64,000 bases of DNA from Acidimicrobiia bacterium (GTDB taxonomy: Bacteria > Actinomycetota > Acidimicrobiia > IMCC26256 > JAENVU01), in the NCBI GenBank assembly GCA_025361725.1, contig JANYJV010000073.1:1079-65078 (forward strand), read 5' to 3'. A program made the position numbers and the translations under genes. The notes beneath the pieces were generated by a model that was not told where the DNA came from, ran no database searches, and saw only the letters and a list, made by a program, of their open reading frames with translations. Position 1 is the stretch's first letter. Every line of letters starts with the position of its first letter. Shown one piece after another: positions 50,067 to 61,386 of the stretch.

Positions 50067-50792
50067 ATGGCAACTCTTCCCACCAGCGGATCACCCGTTT
50101 ACTGCTCCGGCCCGATGTTCAGCGTCGGCGATCTGAACGAACAGGCTCAGGTCGCCGCCGCGCTCGAGGCGGCGAACTTCACCACCTATCTGCCCCAACG
50201 CGACGGCATCGAGGTCGGCAAGGTGATGGGGGACATCAACAGCGGTCTCGACCTCCCGATGAGCGAGATCCTCGAGATCATGACGTTCGTCCGCAAGATC
50301 GTGTTCGCCCTCGACGTGTACCAACTCGTCGAGCGATGCGAGTCCCTGGTCTTCAACATGGACGGTCGGGTTCCCGACGACGGCAGCGTCGTCGAGACGG
50401 CCATGGCATTCGCAGCCGGCAAGCCGATCGTGATCTACAAGACGACGCCGATCTCGATGCTCGGCGGTTTCGACAATCCGATGGTGCAGGGTCTGTCGAC
50501 CACCTGGCAGTACGTCTCCGACGTCGCCCAAGTTCCGGCGGCAGTGTCGGCCGCCGTTGCGGCCACCGCCGCGCTGCAAGGCACGTCCTTCGTCGCCGGT
50601 CCGCACCTCGATGCGGTGCTGAAGCTCGGTGCGGCCGTGTGGGGACTGGTGCCCGAGATGCACGCCGCGAGCAACGACACCCCGGCGCAGCTCTACGCGG
50701 CGGTCCAGGGGCTCGAGCAGGTGCTCGGACCGTTGGTGGCAGCCGCCGACGGCGACCCTGCGCCGCCATCCGCGCCGGCGAAAGCGTCCTAG
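50067..50792 (+). CDS. Nucleoside 2-deoxyribosyltransferase-like (NDT/Rcl fold) protein with an Ala-rich C-terminal extension
   Basis: The translation contains VYCSGPMFSVGDLNEQ...YLPQRDG and PDDGSVVETAMAFAAGKPIVIY, which resembles the family's catalytic Glu context. Confidence 0.65.
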   Translation: MATLPTSGSPVYCSGPMFSVGDLNEQAQVAAALEAANFTTYLPQRDGIEVGKVMGDINSGLDLPMSEILEIMTFVRKIVFALDVYQLVERCESLVFNMDGRVPDDGSVVETAMAFAAGKPIVIYKTTPISMLGGFDNPMVQGLSTTWQYVSDVAQVPAAVSAAVAATAALQGTSFVAGPHLDAVLKLGAAVWGLVPEMHAASNDTPAQLYAAVQGLEQVLGPLVAAADGDPAPPSAPAKAS

Positions 50793-54360: not shown

Positions 54361-54379
54361 ATTGCACGGGTCGTGCAAT
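54361..54379. promoter_or_regulatory. ATTGCAC-N5-GTGCAAT palindrome upstream of the second secreted His/Met-rich protein gene
   Basis: Perfect 7-bp inverted repeat, 21 nt upstream of ATG 54400. It shares the core TGCAC-N5-GTGCA with 36760..36774. Confidence 0.45.
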
Positions 54380-54399
54380 CACTCCTTGGGGGAACCACC

Positions 54400-55323
54400 A
54401 TGGCCGCAACGCCCACTCTTCGCCGCCGCGCTCGATTCGCGGTCGGCGTCGCCGTCATCGCGCTGCTGACGTTCGCAGCCGTCCCCGCCCTTGCCGACAA
54501 AGGCCCCGACCACGGAGCCATGAAGGGCATGAAGGGCATGAAGGGCATGAAGCATTCCAAGACTGGGATGCAGGTGATCACGGCCGCACTGACCGGCGAC
54601 TCGCCGTGTGAGAAGTCGGGACCACCGGCGTCGGTCGGTCAGGTCAAGAAGGACGCCGAGGGTCACGACGCGCGAGGCCCGCTCGTGCAGTATTCGGTGT
54701 CCAAGGCCGACCGGGAAACATTGATCGAGCAGCAGCGTCAGGCTCGCGCCGTCGTGGACAAGTACCCCACGGTGGCCGCCGCCGAGGCAGACGGATACAA
54801 GAAGTCCACCGTGTACGTCCCGTGCATCGGTGCGCACTACACCAAGACTGCGCTCGTCGGGCACTTCGATCCGTCGACGCCGTCGGAGCTGTTGTACGAC
54901 GGCACCGCACCGGACTCCAAGATCGTCGGTCTCAGCTATCTGCTCTTCAACAAGGGCGGTCCGCCGGAAGGCTTCGCCGGCCCGAACGACCAGTGGCACC
55001 AGCACAATGCCAACGGTGGACTGTGCTTGAACGCACAGGCTGTCGTCGTCGGGAACGAGTCCACGACGAAGCAGCAGTGTGAGGCACGCGGGGGCAAGAA
55101 GGTTGGGCTGGAAGATATCTGGATGGTGCACGACTGGGTCGTGCCCGGATGGGAGTGCGGCTGGGGCGTCTTCGCCGGCGAATGCCCGGAGCTCGGCGGC
55201 CGAATCGGTGGGACGGTGTTCGATGCGCCGGACCCGAAGGCGTTCAAGAAAGCGCTCGACGGCAAGGCGAAGACCACCAGCTCTCAGAAGAGCACGTCGG
55301 GGTCTTCGGCGGGCGGCAAGTAA
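54400..55323 (+). CDS. Uncharacterised secreted protein with an MKG x3 Met/His-rich segment, paralogue of 36821..37702
   Basis: The Tat-like signal is RRRARFAVGVAVIALLTFAAVPALA. The translation contains HGAMKGMKGMKGMKHSKTGM. The conserved blocks ADGYKKS...FDPSTPSELLY, WHQHNANGGLC and WMVHDWVVPGWECGWGVFA align with the first copy. Confidence 0.7.
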   Translation: MAATPTLRRRARFAVGVAVIALLTFAAVPALADKGPDHGAMKGMKGMKGMKHSKTGMQVITAALTGDSPCEKSGPPASVGQVKKDAEGHDARGPLVQYSVSKADRETLIEQQRQARAVVDKYPTVAAAEADGYKKSTVYVPCIGAHYTKTALVGHFDPSTPSELLYDGTAPDSKIVGLSYLLFNKGGPPEGFAGPNDQWHQHNANGGLCLNAQAVVVGNESTTKQQCEARGGKKVGLEDIWMVHDWVVPGWECGWGVFAGECPELGGRIGGTVFDAPDPKAFKKALDGKAKTTSSQKSTSGSSAGGK

Positions 55324-55350: not shown

Positions 55351-55380
55351 CGAAGGCGCAGACCTCGGTCTGCGCCTTCG
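55351..55380. terminator. GC hairpin between convergent genes
   Basis: CGAAGGCGCAGAC-CTCG-GTCTGCGCCTTCG forms a 13-bp perfect stem. Confidence 0.65.
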
Positions 55381-56109
55381 TCATGACCAGAGTCGGGTCA
55401 GGGCCGTGGCCGTTTCGTCCGCGCGCTCCCAAGCCCACCAGTGTCCAGTGTCGGGATAGACGGTGAGTTCGGCGCCAAGTCGCTGGGCCAGGCGGGTCGC
55501 AATATCAACCGGCACGAACGCGTCGTCGGCGCCATGGAACACCATTGCGGGTCGGTGCGGCATGGCGTCGACCGCCGGCTGCCACTCGGCTCCCACGTCG
55601 ATGGCGGAGCGGTACAACGCCAAGATGCACTCGGCCATCCGGGCGTCGACTCGGGGCGCCTGAATCGCCGCAAGTTCGGGCCCGGCACCTCCGGCGGCCA
55701 GCCCGGCCGCGAGATCGTCCGGTGCAGTTTCGACCAGCGCAGTCATGACCTGCTCGCCGACCTCGGCGGTCTGCATGGCCTGGGCCATCGGGTGCCACTC
55801 GTACTCCACGTCGAGGGGGCCGCTCCCCACCGCGAGGGTGCGGATCAGGTCGGGGCGCACGGATGCCACGCGTTGGCACAAGATCGCACCCCAGTCGTGG
55901 CCGACCAGATCCACGGGGTCGCCGATCTCATCGAGGCGGGCGGCAAGCCAATCCGCGTAATCCTCCTTCGTTGCGGTCCAACCGATCGGGACCTCGGTCC
56001 CGAAACCGGGAAGCGACAACCGGACCAGTTCGCGTGGACCCAGCGCGGCGGCGAGGCGATCCCACATGTGTTCGGTGTCGGGGACCCCGTGGACGAGAAC
56101 GACGGTCAT
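55381..56109 (-). CDS. Alpha/beta hydrolase
   Basis: The translation begins MTVVLVHGVPDTEHMW and contains the LVGHDWG nucleophile elbow. Start at ATG 56109. Confidence 0.8.
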   Translation of the reverse strand: MTVVLVHGVPDTEHMWDRLAAALGPRELVRLSLPGFGTEVPIGWTATKEDYADWLAARLDEIGDPVDLVGHDWGAILCQRVASVRPDLIRTLAVGSGPLDVEYEWHPMAQAMQTAEVGEQVMTALVETAPDDLAAGLAAGGAGPELAAIQAPRVDARMAECILALYRSAIDVGAEWQPAVDAMPHRPAMVFHGADDAFVPVDIATRLAQRLGAELTVYPDTGHWWAWERADETATALTRLWS

Positions 56110-56128
56110 GCGGGGTGGCCTCGTGCTT

Positions 56129-56842
56129 TCAGAAGAGGGGTGACCAGGCGGCGGTACGCAACATGCGACTCTCCCAGTCGTCACGAACTCGGAGCGCGTC
56201 GTGCATCCAGGTGCCGGGGGCCCGGTGTTCGGCGGGGACCTCGGTGGTGAGCAACCCGAGGAGTCCTGACGGTCGCGTCACTTTCTGCCACAGGACCACT
56301 TCGCGATGGCGAGCCGCGGCGCCCCACGCGGGCGTGAACACGGCTTGGAGTTCGAGCAGCGACCGACCGCCATGGCGACCCTCGGCGAGGCTCGGCGCGT
56401 AGTTGTCCCGCGCCGCTTCGAGGTATTCCTCGAGCATTCCGGCGTGGGGCCAGGCAGTGTCTTCCATGAAGAGGGTCAGGTCGTGGTCGCCGCCGTCCGT
56501 GGGGACGTGGGCGAAGTCGACGTCCTGGAGCGGTGACCACTCGGCCGGCGCGAGGGCTTTGCTCGTGACATCCCATCGGAGTTGGTCGAGTGATCGGGCC
56601 AGGCTACGGAGGTCACCGCGCTGAAGCCGCCACACCAGGCGTTCCCATGCGGCGCCGTCGCGCACGGCGGTCAGGGTGACGAAGTTGTAGGCACGGCCGG
56701 TCCCGTGGGTGAGCCGCATGAAGTAGAGCAAGCGCGCATCCTCGGTCTCGCCGAGCGTGCTCATCCACTGGTCGCGGAAGCAGGCCTCGAACTCGTCTTC
56801 GTGCGCGCCCATGACGCGGTGGACCTCATGGATGAAGAGCAT
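56129..56842 (-). CDS. NIPSNAP-like / dimeric alpha+beta-barrel protein (tentative)
   Basis: The 237-aa product consists of two similar halves. The assignment is by pattern only. Confidence 0.45.
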   Translation of the reverse strand: MLFIHEVHRVMGAHEDEFEACFRDQWMSTLGETEDARLLYFMRLTHGTGRAYNFVTLTAVRDGAAWERLVWRLQRGDLRSLARSLDQLRWDVTSKALAPAEWSPLQDVDFAHVPTDGGDHDLTLFMEDTAWPHAGMLEEYLEAARDNYAPSLAEGRHGGRSLLELQAVFTPAWGAAARHREVVLWQKVTRPSGLLGLLTTEVPAEHRAPGTWMHDALRVRDDWESRMLRTAAWSPLF

Positions 56843-56851
56843 GGGCGGACA

Positions 56852-57379
56852 CTACCGCTCGGAGTCTGCCCCCGTGATGGACGCCACGATGTCTTCGATG
56901 GCCGAATCTGCGAGCGCGCGCATCTCGTCGTCGGTGCGATCTTGGATCGGATGCGGCACGAAGATCACCGCCGGGTCGGCGCCCAGAGCGCGCGCTTGAG
57001 CGGCGGCGGCGTCGATGAACTCGGTGGAGGCGAGGAACACGCCCGCGACGCCGACCGCTTCGAGGTTCACGATGTCGTGCACACTGCACGACGTACACGA
57101 GCCTCAGTCGGCGAGGGCTTCGATCACCACGTCGCACTTGGCCGAGATCTCGTGACGGAGATCGATGGGCGCCGGTTTGGTGAACGTGGGCTTGGCGAAA
57201 CGAAGCACGGTGTGGCCGCGCCGTTCCAGATGCTCGGCGACGCGGTCGAGGAAGACATCGCCGCGCGCTTTGGTGATGTCCAACAGGCCGATCGTCTTGC
57301 CGTCCAGGCTGGACGGGCGCGGCGCCCGCTCTCGGGTCCCCGGTGCGCGTTCACTGGTGGGATCGAGCAGTGTGGTCAT
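56852..57379 (-). CDS. UGSC-motif (UxxCxxC) selenoprotein (UGA at 57104-57106 read as Sec)
   Basis: ORFs 57104..57379 and 56852..57082 are in one frame (528 nt). The translation across the junction is EALAD-[TGA]-GSCTSCSVHDIV. A perfect 8-bp hairpin lies 11 nt downstream. The ATG overlaps the upstream stop (ATGA). Confidence 0.75.
57074..57092 (-). promoter_or_regulatory. Putative bacterial SECIS hairpin for the UGSC UGA
   Basis: The RNA GUCGUGCA-GUG-UGCACGAC forms an 8-bp perfect stem with a G/U loop. It starts exactly 11 nt 3' of UGA. Confidence 0.65.
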
Positions 57380-58851
57380 GAACCGACCTCTCTCGTCACG
57401 GGTTCAGAACCCATCTTTCCACTGGCCCAGCCGCCCATGATGCCCGAGAACAGGCCGGCGCCACCACCGGCGTGGGCAATCAGGAGACCGCCGTCGCGAA
57501 ACTTTGGCAGCGTCACCCCCGCGAGGCTTTCCGGCACGCCTTCGTCGATGCCGTCGGCGCCGCGCGCCATCTCCGCGCCGGGAATCTGCAGCAGCGCTCC
57601 GAGTTCTTCGCGAAACTTCGCTTTGGACCAGCCGGCTTCTTCGTAGACGCGGAGATGGTCGGGCGTGATGATCACCATCGCGTCGAACGCGATCGGCAAC
57701 TTCGGGTGTGCCGTTGCGCGCAGACACGCGGCGAAGCTCCGAGTGAGGGACTCCGGGGTACGGGAGAGTTGGTCGACGACTCCGCGCACGCCCTCGCCGG
57801 CGAACAGGGTCACGGTGTTCTGGCTCGCCTCGTACCCGCGCTCCACGTGCATCGGCTCCCAGTACGCGTCTTCGTGCTCGGCGAAGCAGCAGGTGTACTT
57901 GCCGGGTTGCCCGAGCGTGGCGCGATCGACGTCACCCGGCCGGCCGCCACCGACGTTGCGGACGACGAGTTGCAGCGCCCGTCCGATGGTGGCATTCGCT
58001 CGATTCCCCGGCCCGAGCGCGTTGATCCCGTTGTTCATTCCGATGGCTTTGGCGATCGGTCCGTTGACGATGACGACGGGACCGCTGAACCATGTGGTGG
58101 CGAGCAGTCCGTGCATGTTGAACTCATCAGTGCACGCAGCTTCGATGGCGGCGAGCACGACCGGCAGGTACTCTGGACGGCAACCCGCCATCACCGCGTT
58201 GATCGCGACCTTCTCGACCGTGCACTCCACGAGGTCCGGCGGAATCGTGGCCACGATGTCCTGCGGATTGCGAGTGGTACCGGCGAGCATGGCCACGACA
58301 CGCGCGGGCGTCGGGGGCACGAGCGGCAGGCCGTCGGACCATCCCCGTTCGTACATGGCTTCGGCGTCGTCCTCTTCCTCGCCGAGGTCTAAACGCCGAG
58401 ACTGCAACGCCCGGTCACCGATGGCCGTGGCGCGCGCGGCGGCGACGGCCGGATCCTGGGTGCGGGATCCGCACCCAGGTCGATACGGCGGGAGGTCGAG
58501 GCCGAGTTCGTCGATGCCGGTGAACTCGGTCCAGTGGTCTCGACTCCATCCCACGGTGCGAGCGACCTCGGTGCCGTCCTCGACGCGGATCAGGGTCGGC
58601 ACGGTGTCCAGATCGAGCGAGAAGCTGACCTCGAGGTCCCGGTCGTCGATGGCACCTCCGGTGACCTCGGGGAAGTCCGGATCATCTTGGGAGAAGATCG
58701 TGACGGTCCCCGGATAGGCCGTGCGCAGTTGTGCGAGCACCGGCGCGACCAGCGTGCAGGTCGGGCAATCTCGTTTGACGATGGCGACGAGTCCGTCGGG
58801 GAGGTCGGTCTTCACACCCGGCATGCTGGCCGTGGCGGCTCGGTCACGCAA
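57376..58851 (-). CDS. Thioredoxin-fold (CPTC) domain fused to a large uncharacterised conserved domain
   Basis: The N-terminus reads VAIVKRDCPTCTLVAPVLAQL...VPTLIRVEDG. The rest contains the blocks WSDGLPLVPPT, KVAINAVMAGCRPEYLPVV and GNRANATIGRALQLVVRN. The alternative start is ATG 58824. Confidence 0.65.
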   Translation of the reverse strand: MRDRAATASMPGVKTDLPDGLVAIVKRDCPTCTLVAPVLAQLRTAYPGTVTIFSQDDPDFPEVTGGAIDDRDLEVSFSLDLDTVPTLIRVEDGTEVARTVGWSRDHWTEFTGIDELGLDLPPYRPGCGSRTQDPAVAAARATAIGDRALQSRRLDLGEEEDDAEAMYERGWSDGLPLVPPTPARVVAMLAGTTRNPQDIVATIPPDLVECTVEKVAINAVMAGCRPEYLPVVLAAIEAACTDEFNMHGLLATTWFSGPVVIVNGPIAKAIGMNNGINALGPGNRANATIGRALQLVVRNVGGGRPGDVDRATLGQPGKYTCCFAEHEDAYWEPMHVERGYEASQNTVTLFAGEGVRGVVDQLSRTPESLTRSFAACLRATAHPKLPIAFDAMVIITPDHLRVYEEAGWSKAKFREELGALLQIPGAEMARGADGIDEGVPESLAGVTLPKFRDGGLLIAHAGGGAGLFSGIMGGWASGKMGSEPVTREVGS

Positions 58852-58886: not shown

Positions 58887-60047
<1,161 letters not shown>

Positions 60048-60713
60048 TTACGCGTCGGCGAGTTCGGCATCCTCGGTAGTACTGCTGTGTTCCTCGGCAT
60101 ACCAGCGGGGCCGATGCTGCGCGGCCCACGCGGTCGACACCGTTCCCCGGGTCATGCCTCGGAACGACTCGAAATCTCGAAAGGCCAGGACGATGTGGCC
60201 GAACACGGTGATCCAGATCAACCAACCGAACCATTGGTGCACGAAGTCGGCGCCGGTGCGGGTGTCGGTCCCGAAGGCCTGATTCCAGTACATGATGGAG
60301 CCGGTGAAGCCCAACACGATGGCGGCGGCGCCGACGAATACCGCGTTGAGCTTCTGACCCGGATTGAACTTGCCGAGGCGCACCGTGTCGTCACGTCCGC
60401 GTGATCGGAACCAGCGGACATCGTCGCTCGACCACCGGTTGATCCGGCTCAGGTCGCGACGGAGCGAGCGCCCCCAGCGCGGGCCGACCGCGACGGCGAA
60501 GGCCACGAGGATTCCGAGCCCGGAGTAGACGTGCACGGCGCGTACCAGGGCGCGATCCGACAACAGCGATTGGCCAAAGCCGAAATAGAACATCGCGCCG
60601 GTCGCCATCGTGATCGTGAAGAGCACCGCGTTCACCCAGTGCGCGATGCGTTCCACTTTCGTGAAACGCGCGACCCGCACGGCGGGATCAGGTTGTTTCA
60701 TCGTTGCGTCCAT
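60048..60713 (-). CDS. Cytochrome b (Ni_hydr_CYTB/MsrQ-like) membrane protein
   Basis: The translation contains RFTKVERIAHWVNAVLF and VHVYSG, with 4 TM helices carrying conserved His. Confidence 0.7.
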   Translation of the reverse strand: MDATMKQPDPAVRVARFTKVERIAHWVNAVLFTITMATGAMFYFGFGQSLLSDRALVRAVHVYSGLGILVAFAVAVGPRWGRSLRRDLSRINRWSSDDVRWFRSRGRDDTVRLGKFNPGQKLNAVFVGAAAIVLGFTGSIMYWNQAFGTDTRTGADFVHQWFGWLIWITVFGHIVLAFRDFESFRGMTRGTVSTAWAAQHRPRWYAEEHSSTTEDAELADA

Positions 60714-61386
60714 TCGATCGTCCGACCCACGCGTCGATCGAGTAGCCGCGTTCCTCCCAGTATCCGGGGATGACCTTGTCGACGACCTCGATGCCGTCGA
60801 GCCACTTCACCGACTTGTACCCGTACATCGGTGCGACGTACAAGCGGACCGGACCGCCGTGGTCACTCGAGATCGGCTTGCGATCGAGCTGGTACGCGAC
60901 CATCACGTCCTTCCGGCGGGCTTGCTCCATCGTCAAGCTCTCGGTGTACGCACCGTCGAAGCTGGTCAAGCGCAGGGCGCGGGCATGGGGTTGCACACCG
61001 GCGCGATCGAGGAGGTCGGACAGCCGTACGCCTTGCCACTTCACGCCGAGCACCCGCCAGCCGGTGACGCACTGGAAGTCACGGTCGAGTCGGGTCGGCG
61101 GTAGCGCCACGAGCTCGTCGTAGGTGAGGGTCAACGGCGTATCGACGAGTCCGTGGACCTTCAGGCGGTAGTCCGCGGTCGGGCGTTTCGGGTAGTCGCC
61201 GGTCACCGTGTAATAGCGCCATCCGCCGCCGCCCGGGAAGACCGCACTGAGTCCGGTCGGGTCGCGTTTGGCGAGCTGCTGCCACCAGTTCGAGATTGTC
61301 GAACCGGTTGCCACGCCGACGGCGCCGACACCGACGAGGCCGAGAAAAACGCGGCGACCGATCGGAGTGCCGGGCTCGTTCGTCAC
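60688..61386 (-). CDS. Tat-exported molybdopterin-dependent oxidoreductase (sulfite-oxidase/MsrP fold, short form)
   Basis: The Tat signal is GRRVFLGLVGVGAVG. The translation contains DFQCVTGWRVLGVKWQGVRL and GYKSVKWL. Confidence 0.75.
   Translation of the reverse strand: MTNEPGTPIGRRVFLGLVGVGAVGVATGSTISNWWQQLAKRDPTGLSAVFPGGGGWRYYTVTGDYPKRPTADYRLKVHGLVDTPLTLTYDELVALPPTRLDRDFQCVTGWRVLGVKWQGVRLSDLLDRAGVQPHARALRLTSFDGAYTESLTMEQARRKDVMVAYQLDRKPISSDHGGPVRLYVAPMYGYKSVKWLDGIEVVDKVIPGYWEERGYSIDAWVGRSNGRNDETT

What the first reader, a model, noticed from the sequence alone, without database searches (positions are those of the whole stretch)
55381..58851. Four-gene operon around a UxxCxxC selenoprotein and its own thioredoxin-fold partner: candidate uncharacterised selenium-dependent reductase system
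Four minus-strand ORFs are packed head to tail and closed by a 13-bp GC hairpin at 55351..55380.
- 57376..58851 has an N-terminal thioredoxin fold with CPTC. It is fused to a ~370-aa domain with conserved-looking blocks (WSDGLPLVPPT, AINAVMAGC, NRANATIGRA) that I cannot assign to a characterised enzyme.
- 56852..57379 is the selenoprotein. Its ATG overlaps the upstream stop as ATGA.
- 56129..56842 is an alpha+beta-barrel/NIPSNAP-like protein, after a 9-nt gap.
- 55381..56109 is an alpha/beta hydrolase, after a 19-nt gap.

The selenoprotein motif U-G-S-C-T-S-C is a UxxCxxC arrangement. From memory, this is the redox motif of the substrate-specific selenoprotein B subunits (GrdB/GrdF/GrdH) of glycine/sarcosine/betaine reductases, which are thioredoxin-fed enzymes. 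A small UxxCxxC protein translationally coupled to a dedicated Trx-fold protein looks like a self-contained reductive module. The substrate and physiological role are unknown. The fusion protein also contains a Cys-type echo of the motif (RPGCGSRT).
Basis: partly seen in the sequence, partly recalled or inferred. Interest (0 to 1): 0.8.

Follow-up and report, generated by a model that had tools for sequence, protein, structure and literature searches.

The report
UGSC selenoprotein with conserved redox partner
A catalogued selenium-containing protein of unknown function (UGSC family) sits beside a thioredoxin-fused protein of unknown fold; the two nearly always occur together, which points to a widespread two-protein redox enzyme whose substrate is unknown.

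Summary
The sequence observation is correct. Four tightly packed minus-strand genes are present, and 56852..57379 has an in-frame UGA that reads D-U-G-S-C-T-S-C.

That gene belongs to a catalogued family: UGSC family (seleno)protein, NCBIfam NF041046 at 154.9 bits (cut-off 125) and Pfam PF24696. The family has been known since 2005-2008 and its function is still unknown.

The UGA is recoded. All 63 genome relatives that could be scored keep TGA there. An 8-bp hairpin sits 11 nt downstream, and codon choice is frozen across it.

The conserved unit is two genes, not four.
- The Trx-fused partner ("Trx-X") is followed by UGSC in 64/80 genome loci and 78/80 metagenome loci.
- X and UGSC are also fused in either order in other organisms.
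- The 237-aa protein and the hydrolase accompany the pair only in close Acidimicrobiia relatives (14 and 10 of 80 loci).

X (about 340 aa) has no Pfam or NCBIfam model and no solved structural relative. It is repeatedly fused to thiol-reductase modules.

Best reading: a self-contained thiol/selenol relay oxidoreductase. Substrate unknown.

The parts
57376..58851 (-). Trx-X gene: an N-terminal thioredoxin-fold domain fused to the uncharacterised ~340-aa domain X. This is the longest ORF (TTG start); the probable start is ATG 58824.
   Evidence: ORF. More than 8000 clusters of homologues, named only 'thioredoxin family protein' or 'hypothetical'. 6027 representative hits. AlphaFold2 pLDDT 93.
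58516..58812 (-). Thioredoxin-fold domain (residues ~14-112). The CPTC redox motif lies at 58756..58767.
   Evidence: Foldseek matches E. coli thioredoxin and relatives with probability 1.00 and TMt ~0.64. C-x-x-C is present in 78/78 genome loci. TIGR01068 scores only 18.9 bits against a cut-off of 96.8.
58465..58479 (-). Linker motif P-G-C127-G-S (Cys codon 58471..58473). It is the Cys counterpart of a selenocysteine site in marine relatives.
   Evidence: PGCG[SA] is conserved in all Trx-fused forms apart from the Sec form L032 (PG*GS). TGA replaces the Cys codon in L032 and in 40/80 metagenome loci. A covarying hairpin follows it.
57379..58404 (-). Domain X (residues 150-491). Invariant or near-invariant residues: D173, P176, T181, A222-G223-C224, T253, R284, N286, R291, C322, E325, E327, H399, G462.
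   Evidence: Alignments A1/A3. No Pfam or NCBIfam model for any of 50 members. No PDB sequence hit. The domain-only model has pLDDT 94.4 and no Foldseek hit with E <= 1e-3; best TM is 0.31.
56852..57379 (-). UGSC family selenoprotein gene (175 codons). Its start overlaps the upstream stop as ATGA.
   Evidence: NF041046 scores 154.9 bits (cut-off 125) and PF24696 gives E = 1.2e-44. Translation.
57104..57106 (-). In-frame UGA (codon 92), read as selenocysteine within D-U-G-S-C-T-S-C.
   Evidence: TGA in 63/63 genome loci that could be scored, with no Cys codon. TGA also in 77 metagenome loci.
57074..57092 (-). SECIS-like hairpin: 8-bp stem GUCGUGCA/UGCACGAC with a GUG loop, starting 11 nt after the UGA. 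A possible lower stem extends it to 57061..57106.
   Evidence: Fold. 94.5% of cells are paired across 52 distinct sequences, with one compensatory G-C to A-U change. Codon choice is frozen at codons 96-103, including AGT at 100%.
56129..56842 (-). 237-aa protein of an unannotated, Acidimicrobiia-restricted family, built as an internal tandem duplication. It is a lineage-specific neighbour, not part of the conserved core.
   Evidence: 1444 clusters, all unnamed or 'hypothetical', none with a Pfam domain. The two halves align at hhalign probability 80%. Present in 14/80 genome loci and 0/80 metagenome loci.
55381..56109 (-). Alpha/beta-fold hydrolase with an HGxP motif and a GHDWG elbow (Asp nucleophile, epoxide-hydrolase/dehalogenase type). 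It is a lineage-specific neighbour.
   Evidence: Abhydrolase_6, E = 2.8e-20. Sub-threshold haloalkane dehalogenase hits. Motifs read directly from the translation. Present in 10/80 genome loci and 0/80 metagenome loci.
55351..55380 (.). G+C-rich hairpin between this gene string and the convergent gene 54373..55323. It is a terminator candidate without a U tract.
   Evidence: -30.4 kcal/mol, z = -3.5. The U-tract terminator scan does not report it.

Best explanation
The functional unit is the two-gene module Trx-X (57376..58851) plus UGSC (56852..57379). The two products most likely form one complex that acts as a thiol/selenol relay oxidoreductase.

Proposed path:
1. Reducing equivalents enter through the thioredoxin-fold CPTC of Trx-X.
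2. They pass to the linker cysteine in P-G-C127-G-S, which is selenocysteine in marine relatives.
3. They then reach the U92/C95 selenol-thiol pair of UGSC, a small relative of the Sec-bearing segment of selenoprotein B.
4. Domain X, a large conserved domain of unknown fold with a near-invariant Cys (A-G-C224), binds the still unknown substrate, which is reduced.

Shown here: recoding of the UGA; the thioredoxin fold; the near-obligate adjacency and the natural fusions of X with UGSC; the Sec/Cys exchange at position 127; and the repeated fusion of X to unrelated disulfide-reductase modules.

Inferred: physical complex formation, the order of the relay, and that X is the catalytic or substrate-binding part.

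The 237-aa protein and the hydrolase are lineage-specific neighbours. They are probably co-transcribed here but are not required by the system.
For: Recoding:
- TGA in 63/63 genome loci that could be scored and in 77 metagenome loci.
- A conserved hairpin with frozen synonymous sites.

Family: NF041046 and PF24696 score above their cut-offs.

Pairing:
- UGSC lies directly downstream on the same strand in 64/80 genome loci. By record title these span Acidimicrobiia, Myxococcota, Alphaproteobacteria, Desulfobacteraceae, Binatia, Palauibacter, Chthoniobacterales and cultured Pseudonocardia yuanmonensis.
- The same holds in 78/80 metagenome loci. The median gap is about 5 nt.
- No other gene is conserved with the pair across lineages.

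Rosetta-stone fusions:
- UGSC-X in Cys forms (P0218, P0254).
- X-UGSC and UGSC-X in Sec forms, seen as gene calls cut at the TGA.
- Tandem X-X.

Other X architectures also lie next to Sec-type UGSC genes: stand-alone X, FTR-B-X and X with a NifU-like CxxC tail.

X is fused to Trx, ResA/Redoxin, AhpC/TSA, the ferredoxin:thioredoxin reductase catalytic chain and a NifU-like CxxC tail.

The linker Cys127 is Sec in 41 loci. Its hairpin shows compensatory C-G/U-A changes (15 vs 12 sequences), and 0 of 500 shuffles reach the observed covariation.

UGSC members repeatedly hit GrdF/GrdB/TIGR01918 over the Sec segment.
Against: - No biochemical datum exists for any member; reviews up to 2026 list the function as unknown.
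- Twelve to thirteen informative genome loci (marine Acidimicrobiia) carry Trx-X with no UGSC within 6 kb. UGSC is therefore not strictly required near Trx-X.
- The loci were collected by similarity to Trx-X. The reverse question, UGSC without X, was not measured.
- Many loci are close relatives, so the counts are not independent events.
- X gave no clue to chemistry: no family, no structural neighbour, no internal repeat.
- No Sec-insertion genes or tRNA-Sec were found in the parts of the window that were checked.
Confidence: 0.6

Rival explanations
1. A miniature selenoprotein-B-type reductase, like glycine/sarcosine/betaine or D-proline reductase. X would activate an amine substrate, for example through a self-generated pyruvoyl group. 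The Sec of UGSC would then cleave a C-N bond reductively, and the Trx domain would re-reduce the Se-S bond.
For: - UGSC members hit GrdF (12/17), GrdB (10/17, best E = 4e-5) and TIGR01918 (5/17) over the Sec segment.
- UxxC is the selenoprotein B motif (PrdB is listed as UxxC in PMC2398784).
- Some loci lie beside peptide or amino-acid genes: Opp-type transporter and aminopeptidase N in L083/L084, and an ABC transporter plus Peptidase_M24 after the fused form in L092.
Against: - Scores are about 16 bits against cut-offs of 600-800.
- X shows no similarity to any NCBIfam or Pfam model, GrdE/PrdA families included, in 50 members.
- No grdA/C/D-like genes are conserved nearby, and neighbours vary freely.
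- Judging from my own knowledge of these taxa, the hosts are mostly aerobic aquatic or soil bacteria rather than Stickland fermenters.
- No self-cleavage motif could be identified.
Confidence: 0.15
2. An antioxidant or protein-repair system, such as a peroxidase or a sulfoxide/disulfide reductase. X would be a scaffold or client-binding domain, and UGSC the peroxidatic or resolving selenol.
For: - AhpC/TSA-X and Redoxin-X fusions exist.
- Neighbours are housekeeping genes and vary: serC here, gap-pgk-tpiA in other loci.
- Sec is strongly preferred over Cys: 255 Sec against 21 Cys homologues in GOS. In my experience this is typical of fast peroxide or disulfide chemistry.
Against: - A 340-aa domain with about 15 invariant polar and glycine residues is more than a scaffold needs.
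- No similarity to Prx, GPx or Msr catalytic domains was found in X or UGSC.
- The AhpC/TSA-type fusions are a minority of the architectures seen.
Confidence: 0.12
3. The Sec and Cys residues are metal or cluster ligands rather than a redox relay. U-x-x-C-x-x-C of UGSC, together with C224/C322 of X, would hold an Fe-S or other metal centre, giving a hydro-lyase-like or metal-handling enzyme.
For: - CxxCxxC is, from general knowledge, a classic Fe-S spacing.
- The best, though weak, fold matches of X are Fe-S-dependent class I fumarate hydratases (E = 3.5e-3) and HypE/SelD-type proteins.
- X conserves Cys, His and Glu residues.
Against: - TM-scores are at most 0.31 with rmsd about 16 A, so this is not the same fold.
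- The third Cys of UGSC is not conserved in the fused Cys forms.
- Fusions to Trx, ResA-like and FTR-B modules, and a Sec/Cys exchange in a flexible linker, point to dithiol/selenothiol exchange.
Confidence: 0.06
4. One reading: all four genes (Trx-X, UGSC, the 237-aa protein and the hydrolase) form one dedicated functional system.
For: - Gaps of -4, 9 and 19 nt and a single closing hairpin suggest one transcript in this organism.
- The order is kept in 10-14 related Acidimicrobiia loci.
Against: - Both extra genes are absent from every locus outside the close Acidimicrobiia group. That covers 66 and 70 of the 80 genome loci and all 80 metagenome loci.
- Within that group the upstream serC and further neighbours are conserved as well. 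The synteny can therefore be explained by shared ancestry alone.
Confidence: 0.1
5. The UGA is a true stop, so 57104..57379 and 56852..57082 are two separate small genes or a pseudogene.
For: - Gene callers split the gene this way in public data: two ORFs of about 92 and 79 aa, each carrying a PF24696 hit.
Against: - One HMM spans both halves.
- TGA and both flanks are conserved in 63 + 77 loci.
- A hairpin with frozen synonymous codons follows the UGA.
- Cys-codon homologues exist as single ORFs (P0218, P0254).
Confidence: 0.01

Closest known systems
UGSC family (seleno)protein (NCBIfam NF041046; Pfam PF24696; 'UGSC-containing protein' of Zhang and Gladyshev)
   Same: The window protein scores above both curated cut-offs. 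It has the U-G-S-C motif at the family position, an in-frame UGA and a SECIS-like hairpin. It comes from the kind of aquatic or soil bacteria in which the family is abundant.
   Different: Nothing distinguishes it from the family; it is an ordinary member. The work here adds context: its near-obligate partner, and that partner's properties.
'UGSC/Unknown_1' fusion reported in the GOS selenoproteome paper (PMC2398784, Fig. S1A)
   Same: Natural fusions of UGSC with a conserved domain of unknown function were also found here, in both orders and in Sec and Cys forms. Domain X is very probably that 'Unknown_1'.
   Different: The identity could not be verified because the figure is held only as an image. 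In the window the two parts are separate, translationally coupled genes. X also carries an N-terminal thioredoxin-fold domain, which the paper does not mention.
Selenoprotein B subunits of glycine/sarcosine/betaine and D-proline reductases (GrdB, GrdF, GrdH, PrdB)
   Same: Both have Sec in a U-x-x-C context. The local similarity is weak but reproducible and centred on the Sec. Thioredoxin-type electron supply fits what is established for glycine reductase (my own knowledge).
   Different: UGSC is 175 aa, against about 240 aa for PrdB and about 435 aa for GrdB. Scores are far below the cut-offs (16 against 600-800 bits). There is no GrdE/PrdA-like pyruvoyl proprotein and no GrdA/C/D. The partner is an unrelated domain of unknown fold.
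Thiol/selenol relay oxidoreductases with a redox-active residue on a flexible segment (for example the G-C-U-G tail of animal thioredoxin reductase; Trx-fused methionine sulfoxide reductases)
   Same: The proposed logic is the same: a Trx-fold CxxC, then a Cys/Sec on a linker (P-G-C/U-G-S), then a further selenol/thiol centre. A Sec/Cys interchange marks the redox-active position.
   Different: There is no homology to these enzymes and no flavin or NAD(P)H domain in the module. The comparison is an analogy drawn from my own knowledge, not a tested relationship.

Membership tests
UGSC family (seleno)protein (NF041046 / PF24696) | Whole-protein HMM score above the curated cut-off | tested here: met
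   NF041046 scores 154.9 bits against a cut-off of 125. PF24696 scores 152.9 bits against 25.
UGSC family (seleno)protein (NF041046 / PF24696) | U(or C)-G-S-C motif at the conserved position | tested here: met
   D-U-G-S-C-T-S-C at codons 91-98. U/C92, G93, S94, C95, T96, H101 and D102 are invariant in alignment A4.
UGSC family (seleno)protein (NF041046 / PF24696) | Selenocysteine actually inserted at the UGA | not testable with these tools
   Comparative evidence only: TGA in 63/63 and 77 loci, a hairpin, and frozen codons. Confirmation needs 75Se labelling or mass spectrometry.
Bacterial SECIS element | Stem-loop shortly downstream of the UGA with G/U in the apical loop, conserved beyond the coding constraint | tested here: met
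   An 8-bp stem and a GUG loop start 11 nt after the UGA. 94.5% of cells are paired and G29/U30 of the loop are invariant. Synonymous entropy is 0.67 inside against 1.18 outside, p = 0.017. Covariation itself is weak (one compensatory change) because the sequence hardly varies.
Selenoprotein B (GrdB/GrdF/GrdH/PrdB; TIGR01917, NF040794, TIGR01918) | HMM score above the curated cut-off | tested here: not met
   16.2-16.5 bits against cut-offs of 602-800. Pfam GRDB gives no hit.
Selenoprotein B (GrdB/GrdF/GrdH/PrdB; TIGR01917, NF040794, TIGR01918) | Local homology of the Sec-bearing segment | tested here: inconclusive
   12/17, 10/17 and 5/17 UGSC members hit GrdF, GrdB and TIGR01918 at E <= 0.05 (best 4e-5). 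For the window protein the match covers model positions ~333-407. The hits are consistent but sub-threshold.
Selenoprotein B (GrdB/GrdF/GrdH/PrdB; TIGR01917, NF040794, TIGR01918) | Adjacent pyruvoyl proprotein (GrdE/PrdA) and the other reductase components | tested here: not met
   The neighbours are Trx-X, the 237-aa protein, a hydrolase and an aminotransferase. None hits a Grd/Prd model. None of 50 X-domain proteins hits one either.
Thioredoxin (TIGR01068) / thioredoxin fold | Thioredoxin fold with a C-x-x-C at the start of the first helix | tested here: met
   Foldseek probability 1.00 and TMt 0.58-0.67 to bacterial thioredoxins. CPTC is present in 72/78 loci and C-x-x-C in 78/78.
Thioredoxin (TIGR01068) / thioredoxin fold | Membership of canonical thioredoxin by HMM cut-off | tested here: not met
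   18.9 bits against a cut-off of 96.8. It is a thioredoxin-fold domain, not a canonical thioredoxin.
Alpha/beta hydrolase fold (PF12697/PF00561) | HMM above the gathering score, plus nucleophile-elbow and oxyanion motifs | tested here: met
   74.4 and 62.8 bits against cut-offs of ~26. HGVP and GHDWG are read from the translation. Every specific NCBIfam equivalog is far below its cut-off.
NIPSNAP / dimeric alpha+beta barrel (proposed for the 237-aa protein) | Detectable similarity to the family models | tested here: not met
   No Pfam hit at E <= 10, no NCBIfam hit and no PDB sequence hit. Only an internal duplication of a ~115-aa unit was shown.

The most novel reading that the evidence does not exclude
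Domain X together with UGSC, plus a thiol-reductase module, would be a new class of selenoenzyme.
- Its catalytic domain has a fold with no solved relative.
- It carries up to two selenocysteines per complex: U in UGSC, and U in the P-G-U-G-S linker of marine forms.
- By metagenome counts it is among the most abundant selenoenzymes of aquatic bacteria.
- It would catalyse a reductive reaction not yet assigned to any enzyme family.
- The P-G-U-G-S form of Trx-X would itself be a selenoprotein family missing from current catalogues.
Probability: 0.45. Interest if true: 0.8.

Novelty: new member of a known kind. Interest (0 to 1): 0.55.

Why it matters
[quoted passage not shown] In the GOS data there were 255 Sec forms against 21 Cys forms, and they were the top family in many non-marine samples (PMC2398784). 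Twenty years on, reviews still list the function as unknown.

The work here turns a lone orphan protein into a defined two-protein system with four candidate redox centres.
- It names the partner: a very large, unannotated domain family with no solved structural relative.
- It shows that a second residue of the system is selenocysteine in a marine clade.
- It identifies a cultured host carrying the Sec-type pair, Pseudonocardia yuanmonensis JCM 18055 (L040). The literature also names Hyphomonas neptunium.

That makes the old question of what UGSC does directly testable. The partner gives a handle for pull-downs, reconstitution, structure determination and genetics.

For genome annotation there are two practical points. 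Both genes are routinely mis-called: UGSC is split in two, and Sec-type Trx-X is truncated. Domain X also deserves a family model.

Tried and rejected
- **Pfam, NCBIfam and PDB sequence searches for domain X** (single sequence, profile and 50 members one by one) found nothing for X itself. Only the fused redox modules were hit.
- **Foldseek of the full-length model** returned only thioredoxins.
- **Foldseek of the X-only model** returned no hit at E <= 1e-3. The top hits were class I fumarate hydratase, Toblerone-fold hydrolases, HypE/SelD and YjgF-like proteins. All had TM <= 0.31 and rmsd 9-17 A, so I do not treat them as fold assignments.
- **Internal repeats in X** (three segments, hhalign): none found.
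- **PDB sequence search for UGSC and the 237-aa protein:** nothing.
- **Conserved third genes around the pair:** none across lineages. Recurrent neighbours (acyl-CoA dehydrogenase, MutY, SDR, gap-pgk-tpiA, serC) are each confined to one clade.
- **A more divergent UGSC in the 12-13 loci that lack it** (HMM on six-frame translations with TGA read through): none within 6 kb.
- **Verifying that X is the 'Unknown_1' domain of the 2008 paper:** the figure is held only as an image.
- **Searching the GOS supplements and a 2026 review for a P-G-U-G-S family:** not found, but one supplement is truncated.
- **Sec machinery:**
  - ARAGORN found no tRNA-Sec in the window or in 60 loci.
  - Rfam gave no hits in the window.
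  - Ten large window ORFs held no selA/B/D.
- **Sigma-70 promoter and U-tract terminator scans:** empty. This is uninformative for a high-G+C actinobacterium.
- **UGSC structure and a complex model:** not possible.

Full report
**1. The observation**

The region holds four minus-strand ORFs as described.
- ORF 57376..58851 is 491 codons from TTG. Homologues of 476-482 aa favour the ATG at 58824. It ends in a TGA that overlaps the ATG of the next gene (ATGA).
- 56852..57379 translates as one 175-codon frame. Its single internal stop, UGA at codon 92 (57106..57104), sits in ...EALAD-U-GSCTSCSVHD....
- 56129..56842 follows after 9 nt, and 55381..56109 after 19 nt.
- A 12-13-bp G+C-rich hairpin at 55351..55380 separates the string from a convergent gene. 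It folds at -30 kcal/mol (z = -3.5) and has no U tract.

**2. The selenoprotein**

With U replaced by C, the protein scores 154.9 bits on NCBIfam NF041046, 'UGSC family (seleno)protein' (cut-off 125). It gives E = 1.2e-44 on Pfam PF24696. It is therefore a member of a catalogued family.

The literature describes 'UGSC-containing protein' as follows.
- It is a selenoprotein of unknown function, first seen in Hyphomonas neptunium and in ocean metagenomes (PMC1976440).
- It is one of the major families in the GOS data, with 255 Sec and only 21 Cys homologues. It is the most used family in many non-marine samples (PMC2398784).
- It is still listed among families whose 'biological functions remain largely uncharacterized' in a 2026 review (PMC13188914).

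**3. Is the UGA read through?**

I collected 80 genome loci through the partner protein. In all 63 where the position can be scored the codon is TGA, never a Cys codon. The protein is conserved on both sides. A further 77 metagenome loci show the same.

Eleven nucleotides after the UGA lies an 8-bp stem (GUCGUGCA/UGCACGAC, 57092..57074) with a GUG loop.
- Across 52 distinct sequences, 94.5% of the cells in this stem are paired.
- Loop positions G29 and U30 are invariant.
- One sequence shows a compensatory G-C to A-U change made of two synonymous substitutions.
- Formal covariation is weak because the sequence barely varies.

That invariance is itself informative. Codons 96-100 and 102-103 use essentially one codon each: ACG 98%, TCG 98%, TGC 100%, AGT 100%, GTG 100%, GAC 98%, ATC 98%. 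Equally conserved residues elsewhere in the gene use two to six codons. Mean codon entropy is 0.67 inside against 1.18 outside, p = 0.017. A stop-codon reading is effectively excluded.

**4. The partner, and what is really conserved**

The 491-aa protein has more than 8000 homologue clusters, named only 'thioredoxin family protein' or 'hypothetical', with no Pfam domain. A full HMMER scan of 1.84 billion representatives gives 6027 hits.

UGSC lies immediately downstream on the same strand in 64/80 genome loci and 78/80 metagenome loci. The median gap is about 5 nt. By record title these come from Acidimicrobiia, Myxococcota, Alphaproteobacteria, a Desulfobacteraceae MAG, Binatia, Palauibacter, Chthoniobacterales and the cultured Pseudonocardia yuanmonensis.

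No other gene travels with the pair across lineages.
- The 237-aa protein is present in 14/80 genome loci and 0/80 metagenome loci.
- The hydrolase is present in 10/80 genome loci and 0/80 metagenome loci.
- Both are confined to close Acidimicrobiia relatives, where upstream serC and further genes are syntenic too.

The unit is thus two genes, not four.

Twelve to thirteen informative loci have Trx-X without UGSC within 6 kb, even by HMM on read-through translations. These are marine Acidimicrobiia with gap-pgk-tpiA upstream.

**5. Domain architecture of the X family**

The C-terminal ~340 residues ('X') occur in several forms.
- Alone, as proteins of about 350 aa.
- As tandem X-X proteins of about 715 aa.
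- Fused to UGSC in both orders. The Cys forms P0218 and P0254 are intact ORFs. The Sec forms appear as gene calls cut at, or starting after, the TGA.
- Fused to thioredoxin-like, ResA/Redoxin and AhpC/TSA modules.
- Fused to a ferredoxin:thioredoxin reductase catalytic chain (P0171) or carrying a NifU-like CxxC tail (P0243, P0246, P0266).

Stand-alone X, FTR-B-X and X-NifU-like genes again lie next to Sec-type UGSC genes, which are called as two ORFs of about 92 and about 79 aa.

These fusions and the adjacency are the classical signature of two proteins that work as one complex. The variety of attached disulfide-reductase modules argues that the complex is fed by dithiol chemistry. The 2008 paper's 'UGSC/Unknown_1' fusion is very probably the same domain. 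I could not confirm this because the figure is not readable.

**6. What is X?**

None of 50 diverse members hits any Pfam or NCBIfam model in the X part. A profile search of PDB sequences finds only thioredoxins.

AlphaFold2 gives confident models: pLDDT 93 for the whole protein and 94.4 (pTM 0.92) for X alone.
- Foldseek confirms the N-terminal thioredoxin fold, with TMt about 0.64.
- For X it finds no PDB match at E <= 1e-3. The best is class I fumarate hydratase at E = 3.5e-3, TM 0.28, rmsd about 17 A.
- I treat X as having no solved structural relative.
- No internal repeat was detectable.

Conserved residues are D173, P176 and T181 (G-L-P-x-x-P-P-T); A222-G223-C224; T253; R284, N286 and R291 (N-R-A-N-x-x-I-G-R-A); C322, E325 and E327; H399; and G462. 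A-G-C is kept in 78/80 loci and 130/140 representatives.

**7. An unexpected second selenocysteine**

This linker motif (P-G-C127-G-S, 58479..58465) is conserved in all Trx-fused forms.

In MAG locus L032 the Cys codon is TGA. A metagenome scan with that protein returned 80 relatives, of which 40 have K-P-G-TGA-G-S with the frame conserved on both sides.
- Twelve nucleotides downstream lies an 8-bp hairpin (GUCGAYCC-CGGGC-GGRUCGAC).
- It is 98.8% paired in 30 distinct sequences.
- One pair alternates C-G (15 sequences) and U-A (12). None of 500 shuffles reaches the observed covariation.
- Most Cys forms lack the hairpin.

In this marine clade the partner is thus itself a selenoprotein, next to a Sec-type UGSC.

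A Sec/Cys exchange marks a redox-active residue, so C127 of the window protein is very likely catalytic. No NCBIfam model recognises this protein. I found no P-G-U-G-S family in the GOS supplements held here or in the 2026 review table. One supplement is truncated, so I cannot claim it is undescribed.

**8. Relation to selenoprotein B**

The window protein hits GrdF and GrdB at E about 3e-3, over model positions ~333-407, the segment that carries the Sec. Of 17 UGSC members, 12 hit GrdF, 10 hit GrdB (best E = 4e-5) and 5 hit the general selenoprotein B model TIGR01918.

This is reproducible local similarity, but it scores about 16 bits against cut-offs of 600-800. No GrdE/PrdA-like or other Grd/Prd component is present. 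UGSC may share ancestry with the Sec-bearing segment of selenoprotein B. It is not a member of that family.

**9. Mechanism**

*Shown:* the recoded UGA; the thioredoxin fold with CxxC; the X-UGSC linkage by adjacency and fusion; the Sec/Cys site in the linker; and fusion of X to many reductase modules.

*Inferred:* the two proteins form a complex. Electrons flow from a cellular reductant to CPTC, then to C127, then to the U92/C95 pair of UGSC. From there they reach a substrate held by X, possibly involving C224.

I put this at about 0.6. The chemistry is open.
- A selenoprotein-B-like reductive cleavage: about 0.15.
- An antioxidant or repair role: about 0.12.
- A metal or cluster-ligand role: about 0.06.

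Gene context gives no consistent hint. Scattered loci show CoA-transferase, MaoC, acyl-CoA dehydrogenase, SDR, peptide transporters and peptidases, none of them recurrent across clades.

**10. The two extra genes**

The 237-aa protein belongs to an unannotated family seen almost only in Acidimicrobiia: 1444 clusters, all unnamed or 'hypothetical'. It is a tandem duplication of a ~115-aa unit, each copy ending in W-S-P-L. A NIPSNAP-like fold is plausible but untested.

The hydrolase has H-G-x-P and G-H-D-W-G motifs. That indicates an Asp nucleophile, as in epoxide hydrolases and haloalkane dehalogenases.

Spacing suggests both are co-transcribed with the pair here. Their narrow distribution argues against a required role.

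**11. Verdict**

The locus is an ordinary member of a known orphan selenoprotein family, so the claim of a newly found selenoprotein system is overstated. The partner relationship is real, strong and under-described. The partner domain is a large unannotated family with no solved relative.

Interest is moderate to fairly high (0.55). It is not a surprise in kind, but it makes a 20-year-old open question experimentally approachable.

Noticed in passing
L032:6319 (TGA); L094-L128, L130, L139, L159, L171, L172; window counterpart 58471..58473 (-): In one MAG and 40 of 80 marine metagenome relatives, the linker Cys of the Trx-X protein (P-G-C-G-S) is encoded by an in-frame TGA. A covarying 8-bp hairpin follows it, so the partner is itself a selenoprotein there, giving a two-selenoprotein operon. 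No NCBIfam model hits this protein, and I found no such family in the papers searched.
   Followed up: yes
P0173, P0190, P0195, P0197, P0216 (proteins): Proteins of about 715 aa consist of two tandem copies of domain X. This suggests X normally works as a dimer. In some of these proteins one copy has lost C322 or the A-T-T motif.
   Followed up: partly
P0171 (L090/L091); P0243, P0246, P0266: Domain X also occurs fused to a ferredoxin:thioredoxin reductase catalytic chain (CPC...CPC...CHC). It also occurs with a C-terminal NifU-like tail carrying a CxxC. The two forms whose neighbourhood was examined (P0171, P0243) lie next to Sec-type UGSC genes.
   Followed up: partly
L061, L062, L067-L070, L072-L075, L078 (and L017): Marine Acidimicrobiia loci carry Trx-X with all its Cys motifs but no UGSC within 6 kb. 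Most follow gap-pgk-tpiA and have C-T-L instead of A-T-T in domain X. Whether these genomes lack Sec machinery or keep UGSC elsewhere is unknown.
   Followed up: partly
window 56129..56842 (-): The 237-aa protein is an internal duplication of a ~115-aa unit, each copy ending ...R-x-D-x-x-S-x-x-L-x-x-x-x-W-S-P-L. Its family (1444 clusters) has no name or Pfam model and appears restricted to Acidimicrobiia.
   Followed up: partly
window 55381..56109 (-): The alpha/beta hydrolase has H-G-V-P and G-H-D-W-G motifs. This indicates an aspartate nucleophile of the epoxide-hydrolase/haloalkane-dehalogenase type rather than a serine esterase.
   Followed up: no
window 60048..61386 (-) and 58887..60038 (-): Upstream on the same strand lies a SorA/MsrP-like molybdoenzyme (232 aa, twin-arginine-like leader) overlapping a b-type cytochrome (FDH-gamma-like, 221 aa). 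A class-V aminotransferase (serC-like) follows, ending 35 nt before the Trx-X ORF. This order is syntenic only in close relatives.
   Followed up: partly
window 50122..50199 (-): ARAGORN calls a 78-nt tRNA-Ser(CGA) here, but the Rfam scan of the whole window at gathering threshold reports no tRNA or any other family. The call may be a false positive or an atypical tRNA.
   Followed up: no
L081, L082, L083/L084, L087, L090-L093: Public gene calls split Sec-type UGSC into two ORFs (about 92 and about 79 aa, each with a PF24696 hit) and truncate Sec-type X fusions at the TGA. This is systematic mis-annotation of the family in metagenome catalogues.
   Followed up: partly
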